This document shows positions 1,896 to 58,282 of a DNA stretch of 64,000 bases, one piece after another. The notes beneath the pieces were generated by a model, which did not search any database, had not been told where the DNA came from, and was given only the letters and a program-made list of their open reading frames with translations. Position 1 is the first letter of the stretch; each line of letters starts with the position of its first letter. The stretch comes from Octopus vulgaris (Eukaryota): positions 21,576,001 through 21,640,000 of the forward strand of contig OX597826.1 in NCBI GenBank assembly GCA_951406725.2, written 5' to 3'. The position numbers and the translations under genes were made by a program.

Positions 1896-3761
1896 GCATT
1901 TGTATATACTTAAAAGCAATATTTATTAAAAGCAATGTTTATAAGCCAATCAGCAATGTTTTGCTGAATGACTTATAAACAAATCCCAGCTAAACAAAAT
2001 GAACACGATTTTTTACTCAGCTGAGTGAAAAAGAAGATAGAGAACTCTAAACACACACAAATTCTGAGTTCATCTCTAACTGCAGGCATCTTGTTAAGTA
2101 TCTGTATAAGATACTCTCTTCTACATTATTTCAGTTTACCCAGCATATAGATAGCAGACTTTCAGAGAAAAGTTACCTATAGTGGACTGTTACCTTATCC
2201 TGGGTGAGATTTGTCTCACATTTGTTTATCACAAAAGAAATCAGAATTAAAGTACCAAAAATATCAAAAGAGGAAGATCTTTGATTCCTTTGAACAATTA
2301 TCAAATTCCTTCAAATATTTCTGCTAAATCCTATCTTTATTGGCTCCCGTTTTTCACATATCTACAATGGTTTTCTTGCATGATTTCAAAAATTTGCTTC
2401 ATATTTTTGCTTTCAATGAACATTCTAACATTTTTTATGATTTCAGAGCTTATTTTTCACATTTGATTTTTTTTTCTCATCTTTGCACAGCCAGTCTTCA
2501 AGGGACCATTCCTATTGCAGCATTCTAAAAATAAGAGAAATTGTTAATATATCTGTTAAGGAAAATACTGATCCATTTCCAGATCAATTTTAGCAAAAAG
2601 GAAAAACAAGATTTTGTTACAAAAGGTTTTCCACATTAACATAATCAAGAAAATATATATTCAAGTTTCTTTCATTTCACTGGTTTTAGACAAAAATTCA
2701 AAGAATTTCTTTCAATACACTGCTATACCTGATGTATTTTGTTGTTTGCTTACAAAAGAGTGAGAACCTTAAATCAGGAGAGATGAAAAAAATTGAAACA
2801 TCCTTTTATCAAAATGAATTTACTGATGTTTTGATAGAATAACTGATATGTCAGCCATTATGGCAACTTAGTGTCCATCAACTCAATAACTGGTGGACAA
2901 TCTCCAAAAAAAATAAAAGTCTTTTGAATGATTTATCTTTCAAAGAAAAGAGTCAAAAAACCATTCCAACAATCCGTGTTACAAGTATACCACAAACAGT
3001 GTCACGACTATAATCATCTCTTTACAATTTTGTGTTACAGCTGTAATTATCTCTGAGAAAGCTGGATCATATCACAAACATTATCATTAACTAGAGTCAA
3101 GTCTTAACAGCTGTATCACATTATAATTTTTGACAGCATAAAACAGTAAAATAATTACAAATACTTTCAGGAAAATAATTAAAATCCTGCTTCTGACGTT
3201 GGCAGAACAAAACATAGTCTTTTTTTTTTATCAAGGATGTTTTAGAATTTAAAGTTCTGAAATATTTTCAACAAGTCTGAATCAATCTTAAAATGGCTAA
3301 CCTTTTCCATGCACATTTGCAATATTCCCACCCTTGATGAAACTGCTTTTCAACACAAAGCTTACAAAATGCAGGCACAGTTTTGACAATGCCTTATCTC
3401 AGTAATTTCTTTATAAATAGCTTTTGCTAAGCATCAACACTTTGCTGAGTCATTTGCTAAAAATGCAAGCATACTTTTGAGAGGTTTCATAATAAATAAT
3501 GTTTTTGTTTAACACAAGAAAAAGCAAATATCTTTCTCTAAATACTTCATCAAAAATAGGAAGATATATCCATAATTTCTGACTAAATTTATATACTAAA
3601 TATTTTATTAAGTTTAAATAGATTAAAAGTAATTAAAACCTGTTTTTAACAATCATTGTGATCTGACCTTTGTTTTTCTGAATTCATTCCCAGCAAATCG
3701 TTGCCATATGTCTGACATGATTGGTGTCTTTATATTATTGGTTGTTTCCTTTTCTTTCCAG

Positions 3762-3957
3762 TCTTTTTGAGATTTTGCAGAGTTTATATTGGGCAGTTTA
3801 TGGCCTTGTCGATCTAGAACACGCACATTTGGACGAACCGCACAAACTGACCGAACTGATTGGCAAGCTGATGTTTGGCAGTTACAGTATGATAGCCATT
3901 ATTATTCTGCTTAACTTACTTATCGCTATGATGAGCAATTCCTACCAACTCATTTAT
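3762..3957 (+). CDS. TRPC/TRP-like channel, pore-S6 exon variant A (mutually exclusive)
   Basis: ttttctttccag|T...TAT|gtaaga, 196 nt, phase 2 to 0. Encodes LFEILQSLYWAVYGLVDLEHAHLDEPHKLTELIGKLMFGSYSMIAIIILLNLLIAMMSNSYQLIY, matching the TRPC pore helix (LFW-like LYW) and S6 (LLNxLIAMM.NSYQ). Confidence 0.92.
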
Positions 3958-5281
3958 GTAAGACTCATTCCTTTGTCTACAACATTTTCATTCTTTACAC
4001 ATCATTTTTTTCATCACATTTTCATTTTCATGTTTATGATTACAATTTTACAGTTTTAATGAAATTTTACAGTTTTAATGAAATTTTCAGACGTGTGTGA
4101 ACTTTTATAACTGCTGTTGCTTTAACAATTTCTTTTAAACAGGCAAAATATCAAGTATATTTTTTTTCTTTCAGTATAGATATTTCAGAAAATAAAAAAA
4201 ATGGAAAATTTTTTACCAGGCTGAACTGTTTCAACTCCATCATTTCCAGAACTGTCCAAAATGCCAGCACTCACTAAATCCAGTCATTTGTTGCAATTTC
4301 TTTCAAGATTTACCAAGGCAGTTTAACCATTTTTCAATTTTATACAGATTTCCAAACCTGACCATTTGGCAAATTCCTAAAAAAAACCTGCTTCTATACA
4401 ACCTCTGCACCATTTCAGACCAAAATAATTTGGCACCAAGAAACTTAATTTCTTGATTTTGTCTCTTTGACTTTAATTACAATTAGAATATAAAAATAGC
4501 TAATTAGTTACTGAGATAATTTTATGAAATATTTAAATTTTAATTTTTTAAAGAATTAATTATAAAATAGTTAGAGAAAATAATTGAGTTTATTCAGTAA
4601 GACAGATCTATCAAGTTAAAAAAAGAAAACATATACTTTCAGTAAAGCAAGGAATGAGTGAAAGTCTTTGATTCACACTTGATAAAAAATGTTATAAATA
4701 CTATTATATTCACCAGTTTGAAAGTGACATAAAGCAGAAGTATAGAAGTCTAGTTATGATTAAATATATTTAATACATAAGATAATTATGGCTGTCTAGA
4801 TTTAATGTATGAAGATAATAAATTAATATTGGATATATCAATATAGCTGTGATGGTAGATTATTTTGCAAGCAATAAAACTTTTATTATAAATAAAGTCA
4901 TCACAGATTTTTCTGAAGACATCCTATAGTACCATATGGCACCCTGATGTTGCTAAGTGCTACACTCTGGTTGGTAATTAGCATCACCTAATTAATTATT
5001 TATTTTCTGGTGATATTTGATTCTAAATAGGTATCACAACAAAATCTTATAAGCTTCATAGAAAATAAGGAATTTAATTATTTACTGGAAGTTTTCCCAA
5101 ACAATATCCATGATATTCTATGGCAACCTAAATATAAAATAATTTTGTTTATATTGACCAAACCTTTTTCAATTTTCAGACTGCTAAGAGCAAATATTTA
5201 ACACTGAAATCACAGAAAAAAATCAGATTGAATATTCTTAGAAATACTGAAGATTTCTGTAACTTTTTCTTTTCTTTCCAG

Positions 5282-5477
5282 TCTTTTTGAAATCTTGCAG
5301 AGTTTATATTGGGCTTTTTACGGCCTTATAGAATTGGACAACGCTCACTTGGACGAACCACACAAACTGACTGAGCTGGTTGGCAAACTGATGTTTGGAA
5401 GCTACAGTATGATAGCAATTATAGTATTGCTCAATCTGCTAATTGCTATGATGTCACTATCATATCAAATGATATCT
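5282..5477 (+). CDS. TRPC/TRP-like channel, pore-S6 exon variant B (mutually exclusive)
   Basis: ttttctttccag|T...TCT|gtaaga, 196 nt, phase 2 to 0. Encodes LFEILQSLYWAFYGLIELDNAHLDEPHKLTELVGKLMFGSYSMIAIIVLLNLLIAMMSLSYQMIS. Confidence 0.92.
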
Positions 5478-5535
5478 GTAAGAAAGTCTTTTACTTTCTC
5501 CTTATTGATCATAACTTATTCTGCTTCTTTTGCAG

Positions 5536-5731
5536 TCTTTTTGAGATCTTGCAGAGTTTATATTGGGCAATTTATGGTCTTATTGATCTGGAAGACGCCC
5601 ATCTGAAAGAACCTCACCATTTCACTGAGCTTATTGGGAAATTGATGTTTGGCAGTTACAGTTTGATAGCCATAATTGTACTTCTGAACATGCTAATTGC
5701 TATGATGAGCAACTCATACCAAATAATATCT
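5536..5731 (+). CDS. TRPC/TRP-like channel, pore-S6 exon variant C (mutually exclusive)
   Basis: cttcttttgcag|T...TCT|gtaaga, 196 nt, phase 2 to 0. Encodes LFEILQSLYWAIYGLIDLEDAHLKEPHHFTELIGKLMFGSYSLIAIIVLLNMLIAMMSNSYQIIS. Confidence 0.92.
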
Positions 5732-7721
5732 GTAAGAAATACAATTTAAGTCTGCTCTACCTAAGTTACAGCTTACTGACAGCATGAAGCTCTGACAAGA
5801 CAAACTCGCCACACAGTCCAACAGTATTTTCACATGGTACACATATAAACCATGTTAACATTTGTAGTTTCTGCAGTATAGAAACTGTATTAATATTAAT
5901 ACAAGTAAAAGTGCATGTTAGATCTATATTCTATAGTCATACTCCATAGTTGTTTAGTTGTTAGGCCTTTAATAGAAATCCCTGTCAAATTAGTGGATAG
6001 CTGTCACAGTTCAAGACATTTCTAGTAAAGTTATTTGTTTCTTCATCAAAATAGTTTTAGTTTCTTTACCACTTCACAGCAAGCTCCTGATAATTCTTTA
6101 AAAATACATTTTTCTTTAAAATTTTATTAAATTTAGGACATCTAAAAGAATGAAGAATTTTCTGCCTTAGAAACTTTTACATAAAGACGTTTTTAAACAT
6201 CTGTTAATCTAAGAACACCAGAGTTAATATTTCTTATTTAAAATATTGTTTTTTTTTTCTAGAGAAGCTAAAAGAATTGAGAAACCTAGTATGGTAAAAA
6301 ATTAAAAATTTTTCACCTTAACATAAATAAGTTTTGAAACCTCTTTGGAGAATTTAAAGTTAATATTTCCAATGAAAAATACTGGGTTTTTGACTATGAA
6401 TGAGCAAAGAGATTTGAGATAAAGTTTTTTCAAACGATATGTAAGCACCAAATTACATTAAATTTTGATTACACATATGTTCTAGGTTTGTTAGCAAAGT
6501 TTGGAGTTTTGCATAAATAAAAACTAAAGAAATATTTTACAACATTAAGAATTAAGTTGGAAATCTACTTCAGGAAGAATGGCTAGGACAAATGGCTATA
6601 ATATACCTAACTATATGCCTGATCTAATTTATATACAGGTTTTAAAAGTCTGAGGGACATTTAAATGTAAATATAATTGAAGCACAAGCCCTACCTCCTC
6701 TTAATGTCTTAAGCAGCACCTCCCTTGTTACACAAACCTTTTGCTCAACCCTAATCCCTACACAACCCCTTACTTTATTGCTTTCCTTAGAAATGCATTC
6801 TCCATTGCATCATCCCCCATCTGGATCTCAAAGAACTTTAGATCCACACACTCTTTTCTCACAATTTCTTTTTGAATGTGAGTCTGAGAACAACAATGAT
6901 TGGATAAGTTCATAGAATGGCTTTGATTCATCCATTTTCTGCTCATTAACACTTTATTCAATTATGTTGAAGTTTTGGGGTTCTGTTGAGAGAATAACAC
7001 ACTGGAATCTTCAAATCCACTTACAAATATGTAAAGTATTCTCAAAATATAATTTAATAATTTTTTCATTTAAAATTAATTACATGCATACATATGTATA
7101 TTTATACACATGCATAATTACATGTGCATACGTGCATATATACAGACAGACAGACGGATTTTCTGAAAAGAGTCAACAGATTTTATTACAATTTAACATC
7201 AGATAAAATTATAATTATCTTCATGAGAATACATTTATATAGAATTACCTGAAAAAATGTTTAAATATCCAGAAACAAGAGAAATGCAGAGAAGAGTCTG
7301 CAACTATTTAAGGTTTAAATATTTAGAAGAAAAACAACCATAAACAGACATTAAACCAGTTCATTGTTAAATATTTAATAGAATATGCTATGTATTTAAA
7401 TATAATAAAGAATTATTTTAATAATTGAATATATAACTAGTTTGAAAACAACTTCAAGTAAATCAAAAAAATAGTTTTAAAATTTTGCAAGTCTTACATC
7501 TTAGAAAGTTTGTAAATTTCTAGTTGATGTAAAAATTGATGCAGCTTTCAAACCCTCCTTATATTTGTGTTTGCACCAATAAGTTTGTCTGGCCAGAGCA
7601 ATGTAGAGGTAAGCTGTAAAAGGTTGGTTTGTTGCGAATGCTTTTCTTGTTCAGCTTTCGATTCATTTTCCATCTAACATACTTTATCTCTCCAACGAAT
7701 ACTCAATAAAGATGTACATCA

Positions 7722-17484: not shown

Positions 17485-17679
17485 AGCCAAGCTGATGAAG
17501 AATGGAAATTTGCCCGTTCCAGACTCTGGATAAGTTACTTTGCAGAGGGAGCCACAGTTCCTCCACCATTTAACATTTTTCCAAGTCCAAAGTCTTTTAC
17601 GAATACAGTTGCATCCGTCAAGAATTTGCTTTTGGCTCACACAGCAGAACAGAAGACAGCCAAATGGAAGAATGTTCGG
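17485..17679 (+). CDS. TRPC/TRP-like channel, TRP-box exon
   Basis: ttcag|AGC...CGG|gtgagt, 195 nt, phase 0 to 0. Encodes [37 protein letters not shown]..., with the invariant EWKFAR TRP box and PPPFN box 2. Confidence 0.95.
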
Positions 17680-18646: not shown

Positions 18647-18688
18647 TCTACTGTTTCCAACATTAACAAGAGAGAAATCCGTTACCAG
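18647..18688 (+). CDS. TRPC/TRP-like channel, 42-nt exon
   Basis: tttttcag|TCT...CAG|gtgaag. Encodes STVSNINKREIRYQ and joins in frame to give YQ-VVIRKLISRYI, the TRPC rib helix. Confidence 0.8.
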
Positions 18689-19355: not shown

Positions 19356-19634
19356 GTGGTTATCCGTAAACTTATTAGTCGATACATCATGAACAAACAA
19401 CGCCCACAGAAAGACGAAATAGTCTCCCAAGATGATGTTAATGAACTTAAACAAGATATTTCAACATTCCGTTTTGAGCTGATGCAAGTGTTAAATAGTA
19501 ATGGTTTCGAAACACCTGTAATACATCAAGCGAAAACCTCGAGTAAGAAAGATCGAATGTGGAAGAACCTTTCAGTGGCAACTGATACTAATCCCGAACA
19601 GCTTTTGGAAGAAGCTGGCTTGATTGATGAATAG
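19356..19634 (+). CDS. TRPC/TRP-like channel, coiled-coil exon and terminal exon of the short isoform
   Basis: ttttcttgcacag|GTG...; encodes VVIRKLISRYI...DDVNELKQDISTFRFEL (TRPC C-terminal coiled coil), stop TAG ending 19634. Internal donor TCGA|gtaaga after 19542. Confidence 0.9.
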   Translation: MVIRKLISRYIMNKQRPQKDEIVSQDDVNELKQDISTFRFELMQVLNSNGFETPVIHQAKTSSKKDRMWKNLSVATDTNPEQLLEEAGLIDE

Positions 19635-22845: not shown

Positions 22846-24279
22846 TCATTTATATGAGTAGAAAGTGTGTTTCTGCCATTTGTATGATTTTTCTATGAGT
22901 GTGTTTACTAGGGGAACCTTAGAGAAAAGAATATGGAAGAGTTCAGAGTTACAAATGTTACAAAATCTCCTGCCCTTATCAAAAGGAAAGAATACAGACA
23001 GTATGAACCAATCTAACTTGAAAATTATATTGTTGTCTTTAAGACGCCAAACTAATTTACTTAGCCCTGTACTATGTCGTTTTTTACTATCCCTGAATGT
23101 TGAATAGTGGTTTGAAATTCTCTTGGATAACTGGGAAGTGGACGCTCCTATATAGAAGAAGACATCGTTACTGGAAGAAATTCTACACTGGTAAATAGAA
23201 TTCTTAATCTTAGAATTACTAGACAAAAATTTAGTTCTGTTGGGGTTGTCCTCCGAGATTGAAACGAAGTTTTTATTGTTATGATTGTTGTTACTATTAT
23301 TATTAGCGCTAACAACTACACTATTTCTATTATTAGTAGTATTATTAATGGTACTACAACCAGTAATACCACCGACAATAATACCGTTATTGCTGTTACC
23401 ATCAACACTATCATTGTTATTAACACGACTAATACTATTATTAATATTATCATTGTTAACACTTTCGCTGCTACTAATGCTGTTACTATTAATACTATTC
23501 CTATTATTATGATTGTATGATGGGTTGGAATTAGCAAGATTAGTGTTGGAACTCCCGGGTGAAGAATCTTTGTTTAGCAGCTTGGTATTGTGGGAAGATA
23601 TAATTTGTGAAAGATTCCTAGTGTTAGAGAAAGCGATTCTGACCTTATGTGAATTGATAATAGAATGATATCTAGAATTTCTGGGAAAGTTCCTAGCAAC
23701 GGCTTCACGGAACTGTAAGGGAAGGTTCGATTTAATTTGTTTTCCGAAAGGTATTACGAACCAGATACAGTTTTTTGTGGCCTTTGAATTGTTCTTAGTG
23801 TTATTTGTGATAGTAAGGGGAAAATTTCTGGGTTGAAAATTTGGGGTTGCATGGCGCTTACCTCCCCTAGTCCGTAAAGAATTTATTTTATGTACAGGGT
23901 TGCTGGCACTATTAGAATTGAAATCATTATTCCTATTACGAGTAACTTTATTATCTGGAGAAGCAGATGTTGGTTTAGAATGAGCTGGGTCGATGTATGA
24001 CACTTTCTCCTTATAACAGGCTCTTAACAAGGCGGCATTATAGAAGTCTGCCTTTTGGTTAAAGATGTCGACATTAGCAGATAATTTGGACAGTCTCAGA
24101 GATATGTTTTTAACTAAATTATCGGTAATTCGCCTGGCATGATTACTGAAAATGCTAATATACTTAAGATTTGTGGAAGGTTTATGATAAGGGAAGTATG
24201 AGTTATTCTGCAAATTGAGGGTAATGTCTAAGAAGTTGGCTTTAGTTAATTCATCGTCAAAAACTATGCGCAAGCCCAT
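22846..24279 (-). pseudogene. Penelope ORF C-terminal part: RT thumb, Asn-rich linker, GIY-YIG endonuclease
   Basis: 477-aa ORF in the track. Upstream RT motifs lie in other frames at 24290-25250. Confidence 0.8.
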
Positions 24280-25413
24280 TCTACTAAAAAAACCTAACTA
24301 ATCTGTTCTTAACCTTCGGTATGTTTTGGTTCGAAACGTTTTGGAGGTAAAGCAGACAATCGTCGCGATAAAGACCTCCCCAGATGTCTGGGAATTAGTC
24401 GGCCATTTCATAAAGAATATAAATTCCGACCAAATCGGCTATCTGGGCGCTGTCTGTACTTCCCATTAGTACATCAAACGCATTAGGGGTATCTCTACAG
24501 ACCCACAACTTGCTATCGAACTGGATGAAAGATTTCCTAGCAGTCAATATCACACTAATTTCCTCCCTGGAGAGGCCTGCCTTATTGTGTGCGTGCCATA
24601 GGGCCTTATTAAGTATAATAGGGTTGATTGAAGAATAGAAACTAGATATATCGAATTGGATAAATTTAGTGTTGGCCTTATCAGTAATAGAAGTAAACCA
24701 ATCTACGACTTGAACAGAAGTTTTAATTTATTAATTAATATAGGGATATACTTATCTAATATGTATTTACTAAGGGTACCGATGTCTGAACTGGAAGGGC
24801 ATATGAGCCGCAATGCTGGGTTAGTATGAAAGTTCTGTTTGTGGTCCTTTAAGATGAATCTGGGTTGCCTAGGGTTCAATGGTTCCGTCTTCATCTGTAA
24901 TCCGTAAGTCTCCATAATCTGCTTAGTTTCTAAGTTGGCCTGCCTGAGAGTATTCCTACTGGTGGTTCTGTAATTCTTATGTATCTTCTTTTCGAGCAGT
25001 TCCAAATAATGGCTCTTGGTAAGCTTATAGATGTTGCCGGTTTTATCTGATTGGACCAGGATAGAATCTAAGCTGTTTATATCTCTAGAGACGTTATCGA
25101 GGTATCTGAAGTGCTTATTCCTGACGGGTGATTTATGAAATTTAATATTCTTTACGATGTCCCAAAGATCATCTTCGAATTTCTTCAATCTAGGATTAGG
25201 TGGAGGAGTTCCCCTCGACTTAAATAGTTTTTTATATTCAAGGGAGACGTCGTTACTGGTCCGTTTTAGGTCCTCATTGTTGTGGAAGAAGGCGTCTATC
25301 TATTTTTGACGTCAATTCTTCTAACGGTTTTTTAAAAAAAACACTCATTATCGCTTTGTTTACCATGTAGGCAATCATCGAAATTTTTGCTTGTCTTGTT
25401 GTCGAGAGAGGCT

Positions 25414-35847: not shown

Positions 35848-52904
<17,057 letters not shown>

Positions 52905-53829: not shown

Positions 53830-55950
53830 CAGAGGGACTAGCTAGTCTGCCAAATGTCAATCCAACAGAGGGACCAGCTATCTGAATTGACAGTAGCTTG
53901 GTAGATAAAGCAATTAAGGATATTAAGACAAGGGAAAGCCTCCAGCCCATTAGGAATCACTGCTGAGATGCTTAAAATATCTGGCAGCATAGGCTATAGT
54001 CTAGTCACCTGTATAGTCAACCAGGTGATACATGAAAGAGTCACACCCAATGACAGGTGTGGCAGCACCATAGTCAACTGCTACAAAGGTAAAGGTGATG
54101 CATTAGATACAAATAATTACAGAGGTATCAAATTGTTGGATCAGGTGATGAAAGTTACAGAGAGGGTCAAAGCCCAATTAATTAGGGAGAGAGTTAATTT
54201 AGACAAGATGCAGTTTGAGTTTGTGCCAGAAATATAGCACCACTGATGCTATATTTCTGGTAAAACAGTTTCAGGAGAAATTCCTAGCCAAAGATAAACC
54301 TCTGTACTTGGCTTTCATTGACATGGAGAAAGCTTTTGACAGGGTCCTCCAATCCCTTATTTGGTGGTCAGTGTCAAAACTAGGGATAGATGAGTGGTTA
54401 GTGAGAGCTGTACAAGCCACATACAGGGATGCTGTCAGTAAGGGGAGGGTTGGCAACAAGTATAGTGAAGAATTCTGGGCAGAAATAGGGGTCCACCAAG
54501 GATCAGTCCTCAGTCCTCTCTTATTCATCATAGTCCTCCAGGCAATAACAGAGGAATTCAAGACAGGATGCCCCTGGGAGCTTCTCTATGCTGATGATCT
54601 TGCTCTAATAGCTGACTCACTACCAGAACTGGAAGAAAGGTTTTAGGTGTGGAAGCAAGGTCTAGAATCAAAGGGCCTTAGAGTCAATCTAGCAAAAACC
54701 AAAGGCTTAGTAAGTAGGAAGGCAGACAAATCACAAATCCCCTTCAGGTAGATGGCCCTGCTCAATCTGTAGAAAAGGCATAGGTAGGAACTCCATAATA
54801 TGTATCCTGTGTAAGCTACAGACACAAGAGGTGCTGCAATATCAAAGGAAGGTTACCTGGGAAGATAGTTTTTGCATGTGGCAAATGCACAGGAGCAATA
54901 AACACTGAAAATGCGCAGAAAACAGCTTCCATCAAATGCCAGAGGGTAAAACTAGAAGTAGTTGATAGCTTCCATTACCTAGGTGACCAAGTCAGTTGTG
55001 GGAGTGGATACTCTGAGAGCATAGCTGCTAGAATAAGAAAAACCTGGGAAAAGTTCAGAGAGCTCCTACCTCTGCTGGCAACAAAGGGCTTCTCACTCAG
55101 AGTGAAAGGTAGACTGTATGATGCATGTGGGTGAACAGCCATACTACACGGCAGTAAAACATGGGCTGTGACTGCTGAGGACATGTGTAAGCTTGAAAGA
55201 AATGATGCTAGTATGCTCTGCTGGATGTGTAAATGTCAGTGTGCATACATGACAGAGTGTAAACGCCCTGAGAGAAAAGTTGGACCTAAGAAGCATCAGA
55301 TGTGGTGTGCAAGAGAGACAGCTGTGCTGGTATGGTCATGCGTTACATATGGATGAGGACAGCTGTGTAAAGAAGTGTCACACCCTAACAGCAGAGGGAA
55401 CCTGTAGAAGAGGTTGACCCAGAAAGACATGAGATGAGGTGGTGAAGCATGACCTTCAAACGTTGGGGCTCACAGAGGCAATGACAAGCAACTGAGACCT
55501 TTGGAGATATGGCTGTGCTTGAGAAGACCCAGCAAGCCAAGTTACATCATAGCTGTGGCCTATGTTAGTGTTGCATAACCAGCCCATTTAAGAGTACTCT
55601 TCAAGCGTCAGACAATATGCTGTGATTGAGAAGACCTGTTGACTCAAGAGAAATCATTGTCATAGCCAATGCCAGTACCACCCAACTGGCACCTGTGCTG
55701 GTAGCATGTAAAAAACACCCTTTGATCGTGGTCGAATACAGTGCTGTCTGAATGGCCCCCTTGCTGGTGGCATGTAAAAAGCACCCACTACACTCTCAGA
55801 GTGGTTGGCATTAGAAAGGGCATCCAGCTATAGAAACCTTGCCAGATAAGACTGGAACCTAGTGCAGCCTCCCAGCTTGCCATTCCTCAGTCAAACCGTC
55901 CAACCCATGCCAGCATGGAAAGTGGACGTTAAATGATGATGATGATGATG
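53830..55950 (+). mobile_element. 5'-truncated RTE-clade LINE with 3' UTR
   Basis: YKGKGD, NYRGIKLL, DMEKAFDRV, HQGSVLSPLLF and YADDLAL, then a Cys-rich segment; several stops and frameshifts; (GAT)n tail. Confidence 0.9.
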
Positions 55951-56636: not shown

Positions 56637-56957
56637 AATATTGATAAAACTGACATATCTAATTTCCATTTACTGTAGATTGCTCAGCCCCACTTGATAA
56701 AGTTTACAGCTGTGATGTCTTATCATTGCTTTGAGAAGTGTGACATCTGTTTTAAGCTGGGACATGTCTTAATGTCTAAGACTGTCTTAACTCTGCTACA
56801 TTAGAATTAGACTATTGCAGATTCTTTTCCATTTACTTGTTAACTGCTTCATAAATGCATTTCTCACTCACCACAACTACCTGTCAACACCACCACCGCC
56901 ACTATCATCACTGCCACCATATATATATACACATACACACATATACATATATATATG

Positions 56958-58282
56958 GAGTTGAGAATAAACCATTGTACTTGACATTCGTTAACTTACA
57001 GAAAGCCTTTGACAGAGTATCCCACAGTATGATATGGTGGGCTCTGAGGAAGTTAGGGGAAGATGAATGGCTTGTGAAAGCTGTACAAGCCAAGTACAGA
57101 GGTTCTGTTAGTAAGGTGAGAGTTAACCATGAGTATTGTGATGAATCTAGTGTACAGGTAGGCATTCATCAGGGTTTGATTCTCAGTCCCCTCATATTCA
57201 TCAGTGTCCTCTCGGCCATAACAGAGGAATTCAAGACTGGCTGCCCCTGGGAACTACTGTATGCTGGTGATCTTGCTCTTATAGCAGATTCTGTAACAGA
57301 ACTAGAAAAGAAATTCCAGGTGTGGAAACAAAACCTGGAGTCAAAGGGCCTTAAGGTTAACTTTTAACAAAGACTAAGGTTATAATAAGCTAGAAAACAG
57401 ACAGGACCCTTCCCACATCAGGTAAATGGCCCTGCTCGATATGTAGAAAAGGTGTAGGCAGGAATTCTATATGGTTTACCCAGTGTAAGCTATCGACACA
57501 CAAGGGGTATAATGGAATAATAGGGAGGTTATCAGAGAAGATAGTGTTTGTGGGTGGAAGACGCATGGGAGCCATAAACACTAGAGATACTTGGGAAATC
57601 CATTTTGTCAAATGCTCCAGAGGCTCTTTAGAGGTTGTGGATAATTTCTGTTATCTAGGGGACCAAATTAGTATTGGGGAAAAATGTACAGAAAGTGTAA
57701 TAAGAATAAGAATGGAAAAAATTCAGAGAGCTTTTACTTCTATTGGCAACCAAAGGCCTCTCTCTCTCTCTCTCTCATTGAAAGAAAGATTGTATGATGC
57801 ACATATATGAACGGCAATGCTGCATGGTAGTGAGACGTGGGCCCAGATTGCAGAAGACATGCAAAAGCTGGAGAGGAATGAAACTGGTATGCTCTGCTGG
57901 ATGTGCAATGCCAGTGTACACATGCGACAGAGTTCAAGTGTATTGAGAGAGAAGGTGGGCATAAGGGGAATTAGATGCAGGGTGCAAGAGAGGAGACTGT
58001 GCTGGTTTGGTCATGTGATACAGATGGATGAAGACAGATGCATACAGAAGGGCCAGTAACTTAAAGTGGATGGAACTCAAGGAAGCAGGAAACCCAGGAA
58101 GACATGAGATGAAGTATTGAAGGCCGATCTCAAGGCACTGAGCCTTATGTAGATGATAAAGGACTGAAATATTTGGTGCTTTGCTCTACTCAAGAAGAAC
58201 TGTCCACCACAACAAGTGGATACTGGTGTTGGTACCACATAAAAAGCCAGCATGGAAAACAGACATTAAATGATGATGATAG
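56958..58282 (+). mobile_element. Second, more diverged RTE-clade LINE fragment
   Basis: NLQKAFDRV, HQGLILSPL, YAGDLAL, LHGSETW and RRLCWFGHV; collinear with 54290-55950; (GAT)n tail. Confidence 0.85.

What the first reader, a model, noticed from the sequence alone, without database searches (positions are those of the whole stretch)
3762..5731. Three mutually exclusive exons swap the entire pore loop and S6 of a TRPC/TRP-like channel
Seen: three tandem paralogous exons, each exactly 196 nt with intact AG/GTAAGA sites and the same phases (2 to 0), 53-55 of 65 aa identical pairwise, with many synonymous differences and no stops. The flanking introns are unrelated, and the downstream TRP-box and coiled-coil exons are single-copy. 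Including 0, 2 or 3 exons shifts the frame; only one preserves it. Established: this segment forms the pore helix, selectivity filter and gate of TRPC channels, and TRP-type channels carry the rhabdomeric photoreceptor current. Inference: one gene yields three pore isoforms, and more as heterotetramers. I know of no described triplicated pore-exon cassette in TRPC genes but cannot search the literature.
Basis: partly seen in the sequence, partly recalled or inferred. Interest (0 to 1): 0.92.

Follow-up and report, generated by a model that had tools for sequence, protein, structure and literature searches.

The report
Swappable pore exons in octopus TRPC
An octopus gene for a TRPC ion channel, the counterpart of the squid photoreceptor TRP channel, carries three alternative copies of the exon that builds the channel's pore and splices in one at a time, and the same exon is also duplicated in mussels, abalone, worms and nematodes.

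Summary
Three 196-nt exons (A 3762-3957, B 5282-5477, C 5536-5731) each encode the pore helix, filter, outer loop and S6 of an 802-aa octopus alpha-TRPC (TRP-gamma-like) channel. RNA-type contigs show each exon joined singly to the upstream and downstream exons, with no exon-exon joint. O. sinensis RefSeq X1/X3/X2 already carry A/B/C. A is 65/65 identical to the Loligo trp-like protein. C has squid-type orthologues; B looks decayed there.

The 58-nt B-C intron is probably too short to splice. Any double inclusion stops at codon 634.

Copies group by lineage, so the duplication is recurrent or homogenised.

Functional difference is unshown: gate residues are invariant, and only B changes the Ca2+-filter position (D to E). 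Mutually exclusive ion-channel exons are a known kind, and a Limulus TRP pore variant is recalled. Ten searches found no description of this cassette or its recurrence.

The parts
3762..3957 (+). Alternative pore exon A (pore helix, filter, outer loop, S6). 65/65 identical to Loligo trp-like protein CAA11261; RefSeq isoform X1.
3958..5281 (+). A-B intron, 1324 nt. Long enough to splice; no convincing docking/selector pairing found.
5282..5477 (+). Alternative pore exon B. E at the TRPC5-N584-equivalent position; L at position 59 (0 of 179 non-cephalopod exon peptides). RefSeq isoform X3; remnant looks decayed in squid-type records.
5478..5535 (+). 58-nt B-C intron; the other ten introns of the gene are 667-11753 nt. 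Branch-point-like adenosines at 5508 and 5514, 31 and 37 nt from the donor: likely steric block to joining B and C.
   Evidence: <50-nt criterion from PMC5740500
5536..5731 (+). Alternative pore exon C; RefSeq isoform X2. Orthologous exon (59-60 of 65) in squid-type records.
17485..17679 (+). Constitutive exon with the TRP box; common acceptor for A, B and C.
   Evidence: loose ends match its first 24-29 nt
18647..18688 (+). Constitutive 42-nt exon
19356..19634 (+). Last coding exon with the stop codon (C-terminal region)

Best explanation
This is a functional cluster of three mutually exclusive exons, made by two tandem duplications of the ancient phase 2-0 pore exon of the alpha-TRPC gene. 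Both duplications probably predate the octopus/squid split: first C versus the A/B ancestor, then A versus B. SHOWN: each exon is spliced alone between the constitutive upstream exon (ending about 2.1 kb before the window) and 17485, giving three 802-aa subunits that differ at 15 of 65 pore/S6 positions. INFERRED, exclusion: B and C cannot be joined because their 58-nt intron puts the branch point under 50 nt from the donor. A versus B/C is settled by regulated splice-site choice, backed by decay of double-inclusion and skipped mRNAs (premature stops 427 and 191 nt before the last junction). INFERRED, function: A is the main, eye-type pore. C and B tune outer-pore charge and histidine layout, Ca2+ share or gating in other cells or stages, while the filter glycine and the gate stay fixed. 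The same exon was duplicated repeatedly in other protostome TRPC genes.
For:: six contigs carry both junctions around exactly one exon (X11: A, B, C; X9: A, B; X2: A). X8 bridges upstream exon to A with 255 or more letters. No joints within the cassette in 4 of 4 runs, from 4 studies. RefSeq isoforms X1-X3. dN/dS 0.035-0.11. A identical to Loligo. A+B+C form one clade at 99/87 and 97/90, with A+B sister at 98/92 and 97/92. Exon maps without gaps to TRPC4 564-627 and TRPC5 568-631. Position 17 equals TRPC5 N584, whose change to D doubles Ca2+ permeability (PMC7565274). Short spacers of 24-74 nt in 11 of 12 tandem ORFs measured. Cephalopod alphaTRPC is eye-enriched (PMC13402157).
Against: No electrophysiology and no tissue labels. 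Most differences are conservative and fall in columns that vary across the whole family; filter G and gate I/S/Q are identical, and A and C both keep D at position 17. Net outer-loop charge is the same in all three (my count). Junction overhangs in X11, X9 and X2 are 18-29 nt, below the tool's 31-letter bridging standard, and contigs drop rare variants, so rare double inclusion is not excluded. The runs are 'RNA?' by guess. B looks dispensable: decayed in P0003/P0009, a 1-nt deletion at 5307 in organism B (with 20 indel rows not shown), and no B isoform among the 2 O. bimaculoides proteins listed. The branch points are consensus matches only.
Confidence: 0.72

Rival explanations
1. Real mutually exclusive exons but functionally equivalent. 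A short duplicate of a frame-shifting exon is automatically exclusive and harmless, and is kept under purifying selection only because it is sometimes spliced. The recurrence across phyla reflects tolerance, not adaptation.
For: Conservative differences with invariant filter G and gate. Decay of B in squid-type records and a degenerate second copy in P0010. Many relatives show one exon in all listed isoforms: oysters, scallops, Ruditapes, Mya, Patella, Biomphalaria, Physella, Lingula, Trichinella, Steinernema. [quoted passage not shown]
Against: A is unchanged between octopus and Loligo (65/65) while the whole protein is 84% identical. A and C have been kept distinct in both lineages. It is the same exon that recurs, in several phyla.
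Confidence: 0.2
2. One ancient (protostome or molluscan) duplication, kept alike within each lineage by gene conversion or birth-and-death turnover, rather than many independent duplications. This rival concerns history only.
For: Mytilus copy 1 falls with Patella, chiton and cephalopod exons (85/76, unstarred) and copy 2 apart from them, hinting at an old molluscan pair. The nematode first copies of Toxocara and Mesorhabditis form one clade (100/96-97). Only 64 columns are available.
Against: The AU test rejects a clade of all upstream copies against downstream copies (p = 0.0004), though conversion would also give that. Lineage-specific insertions are shared by both copies in Haliotis (+2 aa) and Lineus (+8 aa). 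Spacer lengths differ widely, and duplicates also occur in other TRPC classes (P0437, P0523, P0527).
Confidence: 0.25
3. Artefact or pseudo-exons: misassembly, or only one exon is used.
For: In run X8 only exon A has a spliced contig; B and C lie in an unspliced contig.
Against: Near-saturated dS rules out haplotype duplicates. All three exons are spliced in X11. The B-C arrangement recurs in an independent octopus-type record (P0005).
Confidence: 0.02

Closest known systems
Limulus TRP cDNA variants (Bandyopadhyay and Payne 2004, pmid 15525336)
   Same: Recalled, not read (paper not held; title seen in the reference list of PMC3250099): one variant has an alternative stretch of about 63 aa in the pore domain of a photoreceptor TRPC channel, very likely the same exon.
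   Different: As recalled: two pore versions, cDNA only, in a chelicerate, with no genomic cassette, exclusion mechanism or cross-phylum view. I could not retrieve those sequences.
Insect nAChR alpha6 exons 8a/8b/8c (PMC1919356, passages read)
   Same: Three tandem duplicated, mutually exclusive exons in a neuronal ion channel, about 300 My old, with a usage and conservation hierarchy and lineage losses. That exon 8 encodes the pore-lining helix is recalled ('TM2' had 0 hits in the text).
   Different: Pentameric ligand-gated channel, one insect-wide origin. Here a tetrameric TRPC, with the whole pore helix-filter-S6 swapped and lineage-wise recurrence.
Convergent tandem exon duplication in ion channels (Copley 2004, seen only as cited in PMC3342872 section 'Tandem Exon Duplications' and PMC5740500)
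   Same: The same exon duplicated independently in different lineages and used exclusively.
   Different: Those cases compare flies and mammals; 'TRP' has 0 hits in the main text of both papers read.
RefSeq models XP_036364088-91 (O. sinensis TRP-gamma-like X1-X3) and equivalents in O. bimaculoides, Mytilus, Haliotis, Lineus
   Same: The isoforms themselves are already in the databases as automatic annotation.
   Different: No description found. The 2026 cephalopod TRP survey (PMC13402157) kept one sequence per locus, and its main text has 0 hits for 'splic', 'exon' and 'pore'.
Drosophila TRP / TRPL / TRP-gamma, TrpA1 alternative exons, TRPM3 pore splicing
   Same: Pore or gating diversity within TRP channels. 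Arthropod TRP and TRP-gamma form one gene clade related to this single lophotrochozoan gene.
   Different: Insects diversified whole genes. TrpA1 exclusive exons are exon 1 and exon 10 (PMC11471635, search listing only). TRPM3 pore variants differ by a short insert (recalled), not by exon duplication.

Membership tests
TRPC (alpha-TRPC / TRP-gamma-like) channel | N-terminal ankyrin repeats, TRP_2 domain, 6-TM ion transport domain | tested here: met
   PF12796, PF08344 and PF00520 above cut-off for all three isoform proteins
TRPC (alpha-TRPC / TRP-gamma-like) channel | Pore-helix LFW-type motif, filter glycine, gate residues, TRP box after S6 | tested here: met
   LYW, G, I/S/Q aligned without gaps to TRPC4 L571-W573, G577, I617/N621/Q625; EWKFAR at the start of exon 17485
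TRPC (alpha-TRPC / TRP-gamma-like) channel | Closer to TRP-gamma and TRPC1/4/5 than to TRPC3/6/7 | tested here: met
   863 bits TRP-gamma, 779 TRPC4, 768 TRPC5, 550 TRPC3, 530 TRPC6
One-to-one orthologue of Drosophila TRP-gamma | Groups with arthropod TRP-gamma to the exclusion of arthropod TRP | tested here: not met
   (quick tree, SH-aLRT only, TRPL not included): arthropod TRP and TRP-gamma form one clade (100); the octopus gene lies in a lophotrochozoan clade (96). It is best called a co-orthologue of both.
Squid photoreceptor TRP orthologue | Orthology to Loligo forbesii trp-like protein | tested here: met
   84% over 802 aa, exon A 65/65, clade support 100. That CAA11261 is the Monk et al. 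1996 sequence is my inference.
Squid photoreceptor TRP orthologue | Carries the light-activated current | not testable with these tools
   Only eye-enriched expression in print (PMC13402157)
Mutually exclusive exon cluster by tandem duplication | Neighbouring homologous exons of like length and phase | tested here: met
Mutually exclusive exon cluster by tandem duplication | Each exon joined to both flanking exons; none joined to each other | tested here: met
   (contigs; rare variants invisible; overhangs 18-29 nt); RefSeq X1-X3
Steric-interference MXE | Donor to branch point under 50 nt | tested here: inconclusive
   B-C: candidate branch points at 31 and 37 nt, consensus match only. Does not apply to A-B (1324 nt).
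Docking-site/selector MXE (Dscam type) | One docking sequence pairing competitively with a selector beside each exon | tested here: inconclusive
   2 of 15 flank-intron pairs beat 20 of 20 mononucleotide shuffles, but at different sites and GU- or AT-rich; no shared docking site; no comparative genomes to test covariation

The most novel reading that the evidence does not exclude
The pore exon of invertebrate TRPC genes is a hotspot of recurrent duplication: at least six separate events across molluscs, annelids, nemerteans, nematodes and arthropods, and in more than one TRPC class. It is usually locked by a spacer too short to splice. It is the exon-level counterpart of the insect TRP/TRPL gene duplication: cephalopods, with one alpha-TRPC gene, set the Ca2+ share or kinetics of photoreceptor and extra-ocular currents by choosing a pore exon, and could mix pores within a tetramer.
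Probability: 0.35. Interest if true: 0.8.

Novelty: new variant of a known kind. Interest (0 to 1): 0.6.

Why it matters
It gives three natural pore swaps on an otherwise identical channel, in the gene most likely to carry the cephalopod photocurrent. That makes a direct test of how rhabdomeric eyes with a single alpha-TRPC gene set ion selectivity, which varies widely among invertebrate photoreceptors (PMC3250099 passage). Gene-level surveys collapse these isoforms, so expression and knockout work on cephalopod TRP can miss or mis-target them. The cross-phylum recurrence with 24-74-nt spacers would be a clean case of convergent exon duplication with a built-in exclusion mechanism.

Tried and rejected
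Repeat finder on the whole window: swamped by microsatellites, uninformative.

Docking/selector RNA pairing: nothing convincing.

Fourth or degenerate copy in 264 kb: none. Duplicated pore exons within 1.5 kb of the four other TRPC-like loci L004-L007: none (one weak hit, E 0.055).

Of 608 proteins held, 18 had two exon-like hits. P0008 and P0173 were dropped as multi-exon duplications with identical copies. P0499 and P0508 are left as unclear. P0010 has a degenerate second copy.

The idea that the two copies in P0006 match the Drosophila and bee trp exon types rests on 2-3 residues and was unresolved, which left out the bee row; not claimed. Among 118 insect TRP proteins inspected (117 matched the anchor motif) I saw no species with two exon versions. 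Strongylid, Steinernema and Trichinella isoforms showed only one exon.

Brugia trp-2 lead: nothing on splicing in the passages read.

No RNA holder was listed as RNA on record, so tissues are unknown and contig depth was not used to rank isoforms. Papers not held: Bandyopadhyay and Payne 2004 and Liu et al. 2007. Earlier scan findings: none. No structure or complex prediction was run, as the gapless match to solved TRPC4/5 sufficed.

Full report
Observation. The three exons are exactly as described: 196 nt each, AG and GTAAGA borders, phase 2 to 0, 152-158 of 196 nt and 53-55 of 65 aa identical. Synonymous divergence is near saturation and dN/dS is 0.035-0.11, so they are old copies under purifying selection, not haplotype duplicates. 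There is no fourth copy in the window plus 200 kb upstream. The genome has only four other, distant loci at 35-47% (14 of 14 candidates scored).

The gene. A homologue search and mapping to the genome give ten coding exon positions. Six lie upstream of the window (the last ends 2113 nt before base 1), then the cassette, then 17485-17679, 18647-18688 and 19356-19634. With exon A the product matches O. sinensis RefSeq isoform X1 at 801 of 802 residues, so the window is from the Octopus vulgaris/sinensis group (inference). Pfam domains and PDB ranking (TRP-gamma 863 bits, TRPC4 779, TRPC3 550) make it an alpha-TRPC. A quick tree built without the pore exon places it with the Loligo trp-like protein (support 100) in a lophotrochozoan clade, while arthropod TRP and TRP-gamma form their own clade. 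'TRP-gamma-like' therefore means co-orthologue of the insect genes. A TRP protein was reported from squid rhabdomeric cells (Monk et al. 1996, as cited in passages of PMC3250099); linking it to CAA11261 is my inference. Cephalopod alphaTRPC is eye-enriched (PMC13402157, section 3.5 read). Squid TRP transcripts also occur in skin (PMC4564192, one passage).

Splicing is mutually exclusive. I laid 4 of the 24 listed runs on 1950-7000. Run X11 has three contigs of 243, 241 and 238 nt, each made of the last 18-21 nt of the upstream exon, one whole cassette exon, and the first 24-29 nt of exon 17485. X9 (another organism code) has such contigs for A and B. X2 has one for A, both junctions of B on separate records, and the upstream junction of C. 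X8 has upstream-A bridged by 255 or more letters. No joint between cassette exons was found in any of the four. Limits: the runs are RNA by guess, overhangs are below the tool's 31-letter standard (as expected where contigs end at a branch), and rare forms are dropped. RefSeq lists O. sinensis X1 = A, X2 = C, X3 = B, and O. bimaculoides X1 = A, X2 = C.

How exclusion probably works. Skipping all three gives a stop after 581 aa, 191 nt before the last junction. Any two or three give a stop after 633 aa, 427-623 nt before it. Both are decay substrates by the general rule (inference). The B-C intron is 58 nt, against 667-11753 nt for the gene's other ten introns, with branch-point-like adenosines 31 and 37 nt from the donor. 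That is inside the under-50-nt steric criterion used in PMC5740500 (passages). A lies 1324 nt from B, so another control is needed; I found no shared docking sequence.

What changes in the protein. The exon aligns without gaps to TRPC4 564-627 and TRPC5 568-631. It covers the pore helix, filter, outer loop and S6; the cysteine-bearing stretch before the pore helix is constitutive. Fifteen of 65 positions vary, 8 of them in positions 12-29. The filter glycine and gate positions (TRPC4 I617, N621, Q625) are the same in all three. Position 17, equal to TRPC5 N584, a Ca2+-permeability determinant (PMC7565274 passages), is D in A and C and E in B (E in 6 of 179 distinct non-cephalopod exon peptides). 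B also has L at position 59, seen in 0 of 179. Against over-reading: the variable columns are variable in the family at large and most changes are conservative.

History in cephalopods. A, B and C form one clade (99/87, 97/90) with A and B as sisters. A is identical in Loligo. A full-length record 90% identical to Loligo (P0130) carries a C-type exon. Two genomic ORFs with that type of C exon show a decayed copy 62 nt upstream, which keeps the L diagnostic of B though it scores about equally with A and B. So both duplications probably predate the octopus/squid split, and B was probably lost in decapodiforms. In organism B a 1-nt deletion is listed inside exon B (20 indel rows not shown, so uncertain). 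B is intact in another octopus-type record (P0005).

Same-length isoform pairs differing only inside this exon exist in Mytilus galloprovincialis and M. edulis (15 residues), three Haliotis species (12-13) and Lineus longissimus (4). M. trossulus isoforms also show both versions, and Owenia has both. Gene models fuse two copies in M. coruscus, Owenia, Toxocara, Mesorhabditis belari and, in another TRPC class, the moth Eumeta. Unnamed genomic ORFs read through tandem copies of arthropod TRP type (P0006/P0559, P0038), annelid type (P0434, P0435), bivalve type (P0017, P0436, P0439, P0010) and other TRPC classes (P0437, P0523). Spacers inferred from ORF read-through are 24, 28, 30, 31, 35, 38, 41, 47, 62, 62, 74 and 242 nt. 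This is biased towards short spacers, because only those read through. In the exon tree copies group by lineage (Lineus 100/95, P0434 99/98, Owenia 91/84), and an upstream-versus-downstream clade is rejected (p-AU 0.0004). Gene conversion could mimic this, only 64 columns are available, and the two Mytilus copies do not group together. Many relatives show one exon in all listed isoforms; annotation is not proof of absence. Vertebrate TRPC4/5-type ORFs show the same exon borders, with one copy per record.

Comparison with what is known. Tandem duplicated, mutually exclusive exons in ion channels are a known kind, including triplicated nAChR alpha6 exon 8 (PMC1919356 passages) and convergent cases (PMC3342872, section read). 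I recall, without being able to read it, that Bandyopadhyay and Payne 2004 found a Limulus TRP cDNA with an alternative pore of about 63 aa; this is the nearest precedent. Ten literature searches returned no description of the cephalopod cassette or of its recurrence. The 2026 cephalopod TRP survey collapsed isoforms (abstract, passages, section 18 part 1 of 2 and section 25 read). Its supplements were not read and could list the isoforms. PMC13483504 and PMC7387335 (passages) were irrelevant. The library lacks most subscription journals.

Verdict. A real, expressed, conserved three-way pore-exon switch; a new variant of a known kind, already implicit in automatic annotation. Splicing is shown; steric exclusion of B and C is likely; functional divergence of the pores is plausible but untested. 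Interest 0.6.

Noticed in passing
P0150/P0156 (Lineus longissimus isoforms X1 vs X3), residues 513-553: A second same-length alternative segment (15 differences) upstream of the pore in the nemertean orthologue, probably another mutually exclusive exon pair in the transmembrane region.
   Followed up: no
window 22849-25299, minus strand: Two long ORFs (198 and 483 codons) that look like a reverse-transcriptase retroelement, Penelope-like by recall, about 3 kb past the stop codon.
   Followed up: no
window 37029-38341 minus; 50083-50556, 54203-54643, 56855-57807 plus: Fragments resembling LINE reverse transcriptases, by inspection of translations only.
   Followed up: no
window 27770, 28085, 35364, 41927, 48109: Five copies of a 176-nt dispersed repeat next to (CA)n/(TA)n tracts, probably a SINE (family D18).
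   Followed up: no
window 5536-6223 and 3928-6085: Partly spliced or unspliced contigs: upstream exon joined to C and running on into the 11.7-kb intron (X2); an unspliced A-B-C stretch at depth 52 beside spliced A at depth 891 (X8). Possible slow removal or retention of these introns, or DNA.
   Followed up: partly
P0030/P0033 (Babylonia) and P0029/P0034 (Nucella): These neogastropods each have two near-identical full-length proteins on different contigs, suggesting gene rather than exon duplication of the same channel.
   Followed up: no
P0014 vs bivalve and gastropod orthologues: Cephalopod proteins (802-804 aa) lack the long C-terminal tail and some N-terminal residues of other molluscs (about 1020-1090 aa) and sit on a long branch (0.56) in the gene tree.
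   Followed up: no
P0017, P0005 (ENA/Logan ORFs): These predicted ORFs seem to read TGA as W across out-of-frame exon copies, so they are gene-calling artefacts that happen to reveal exon spacing.
   Followed up: yes
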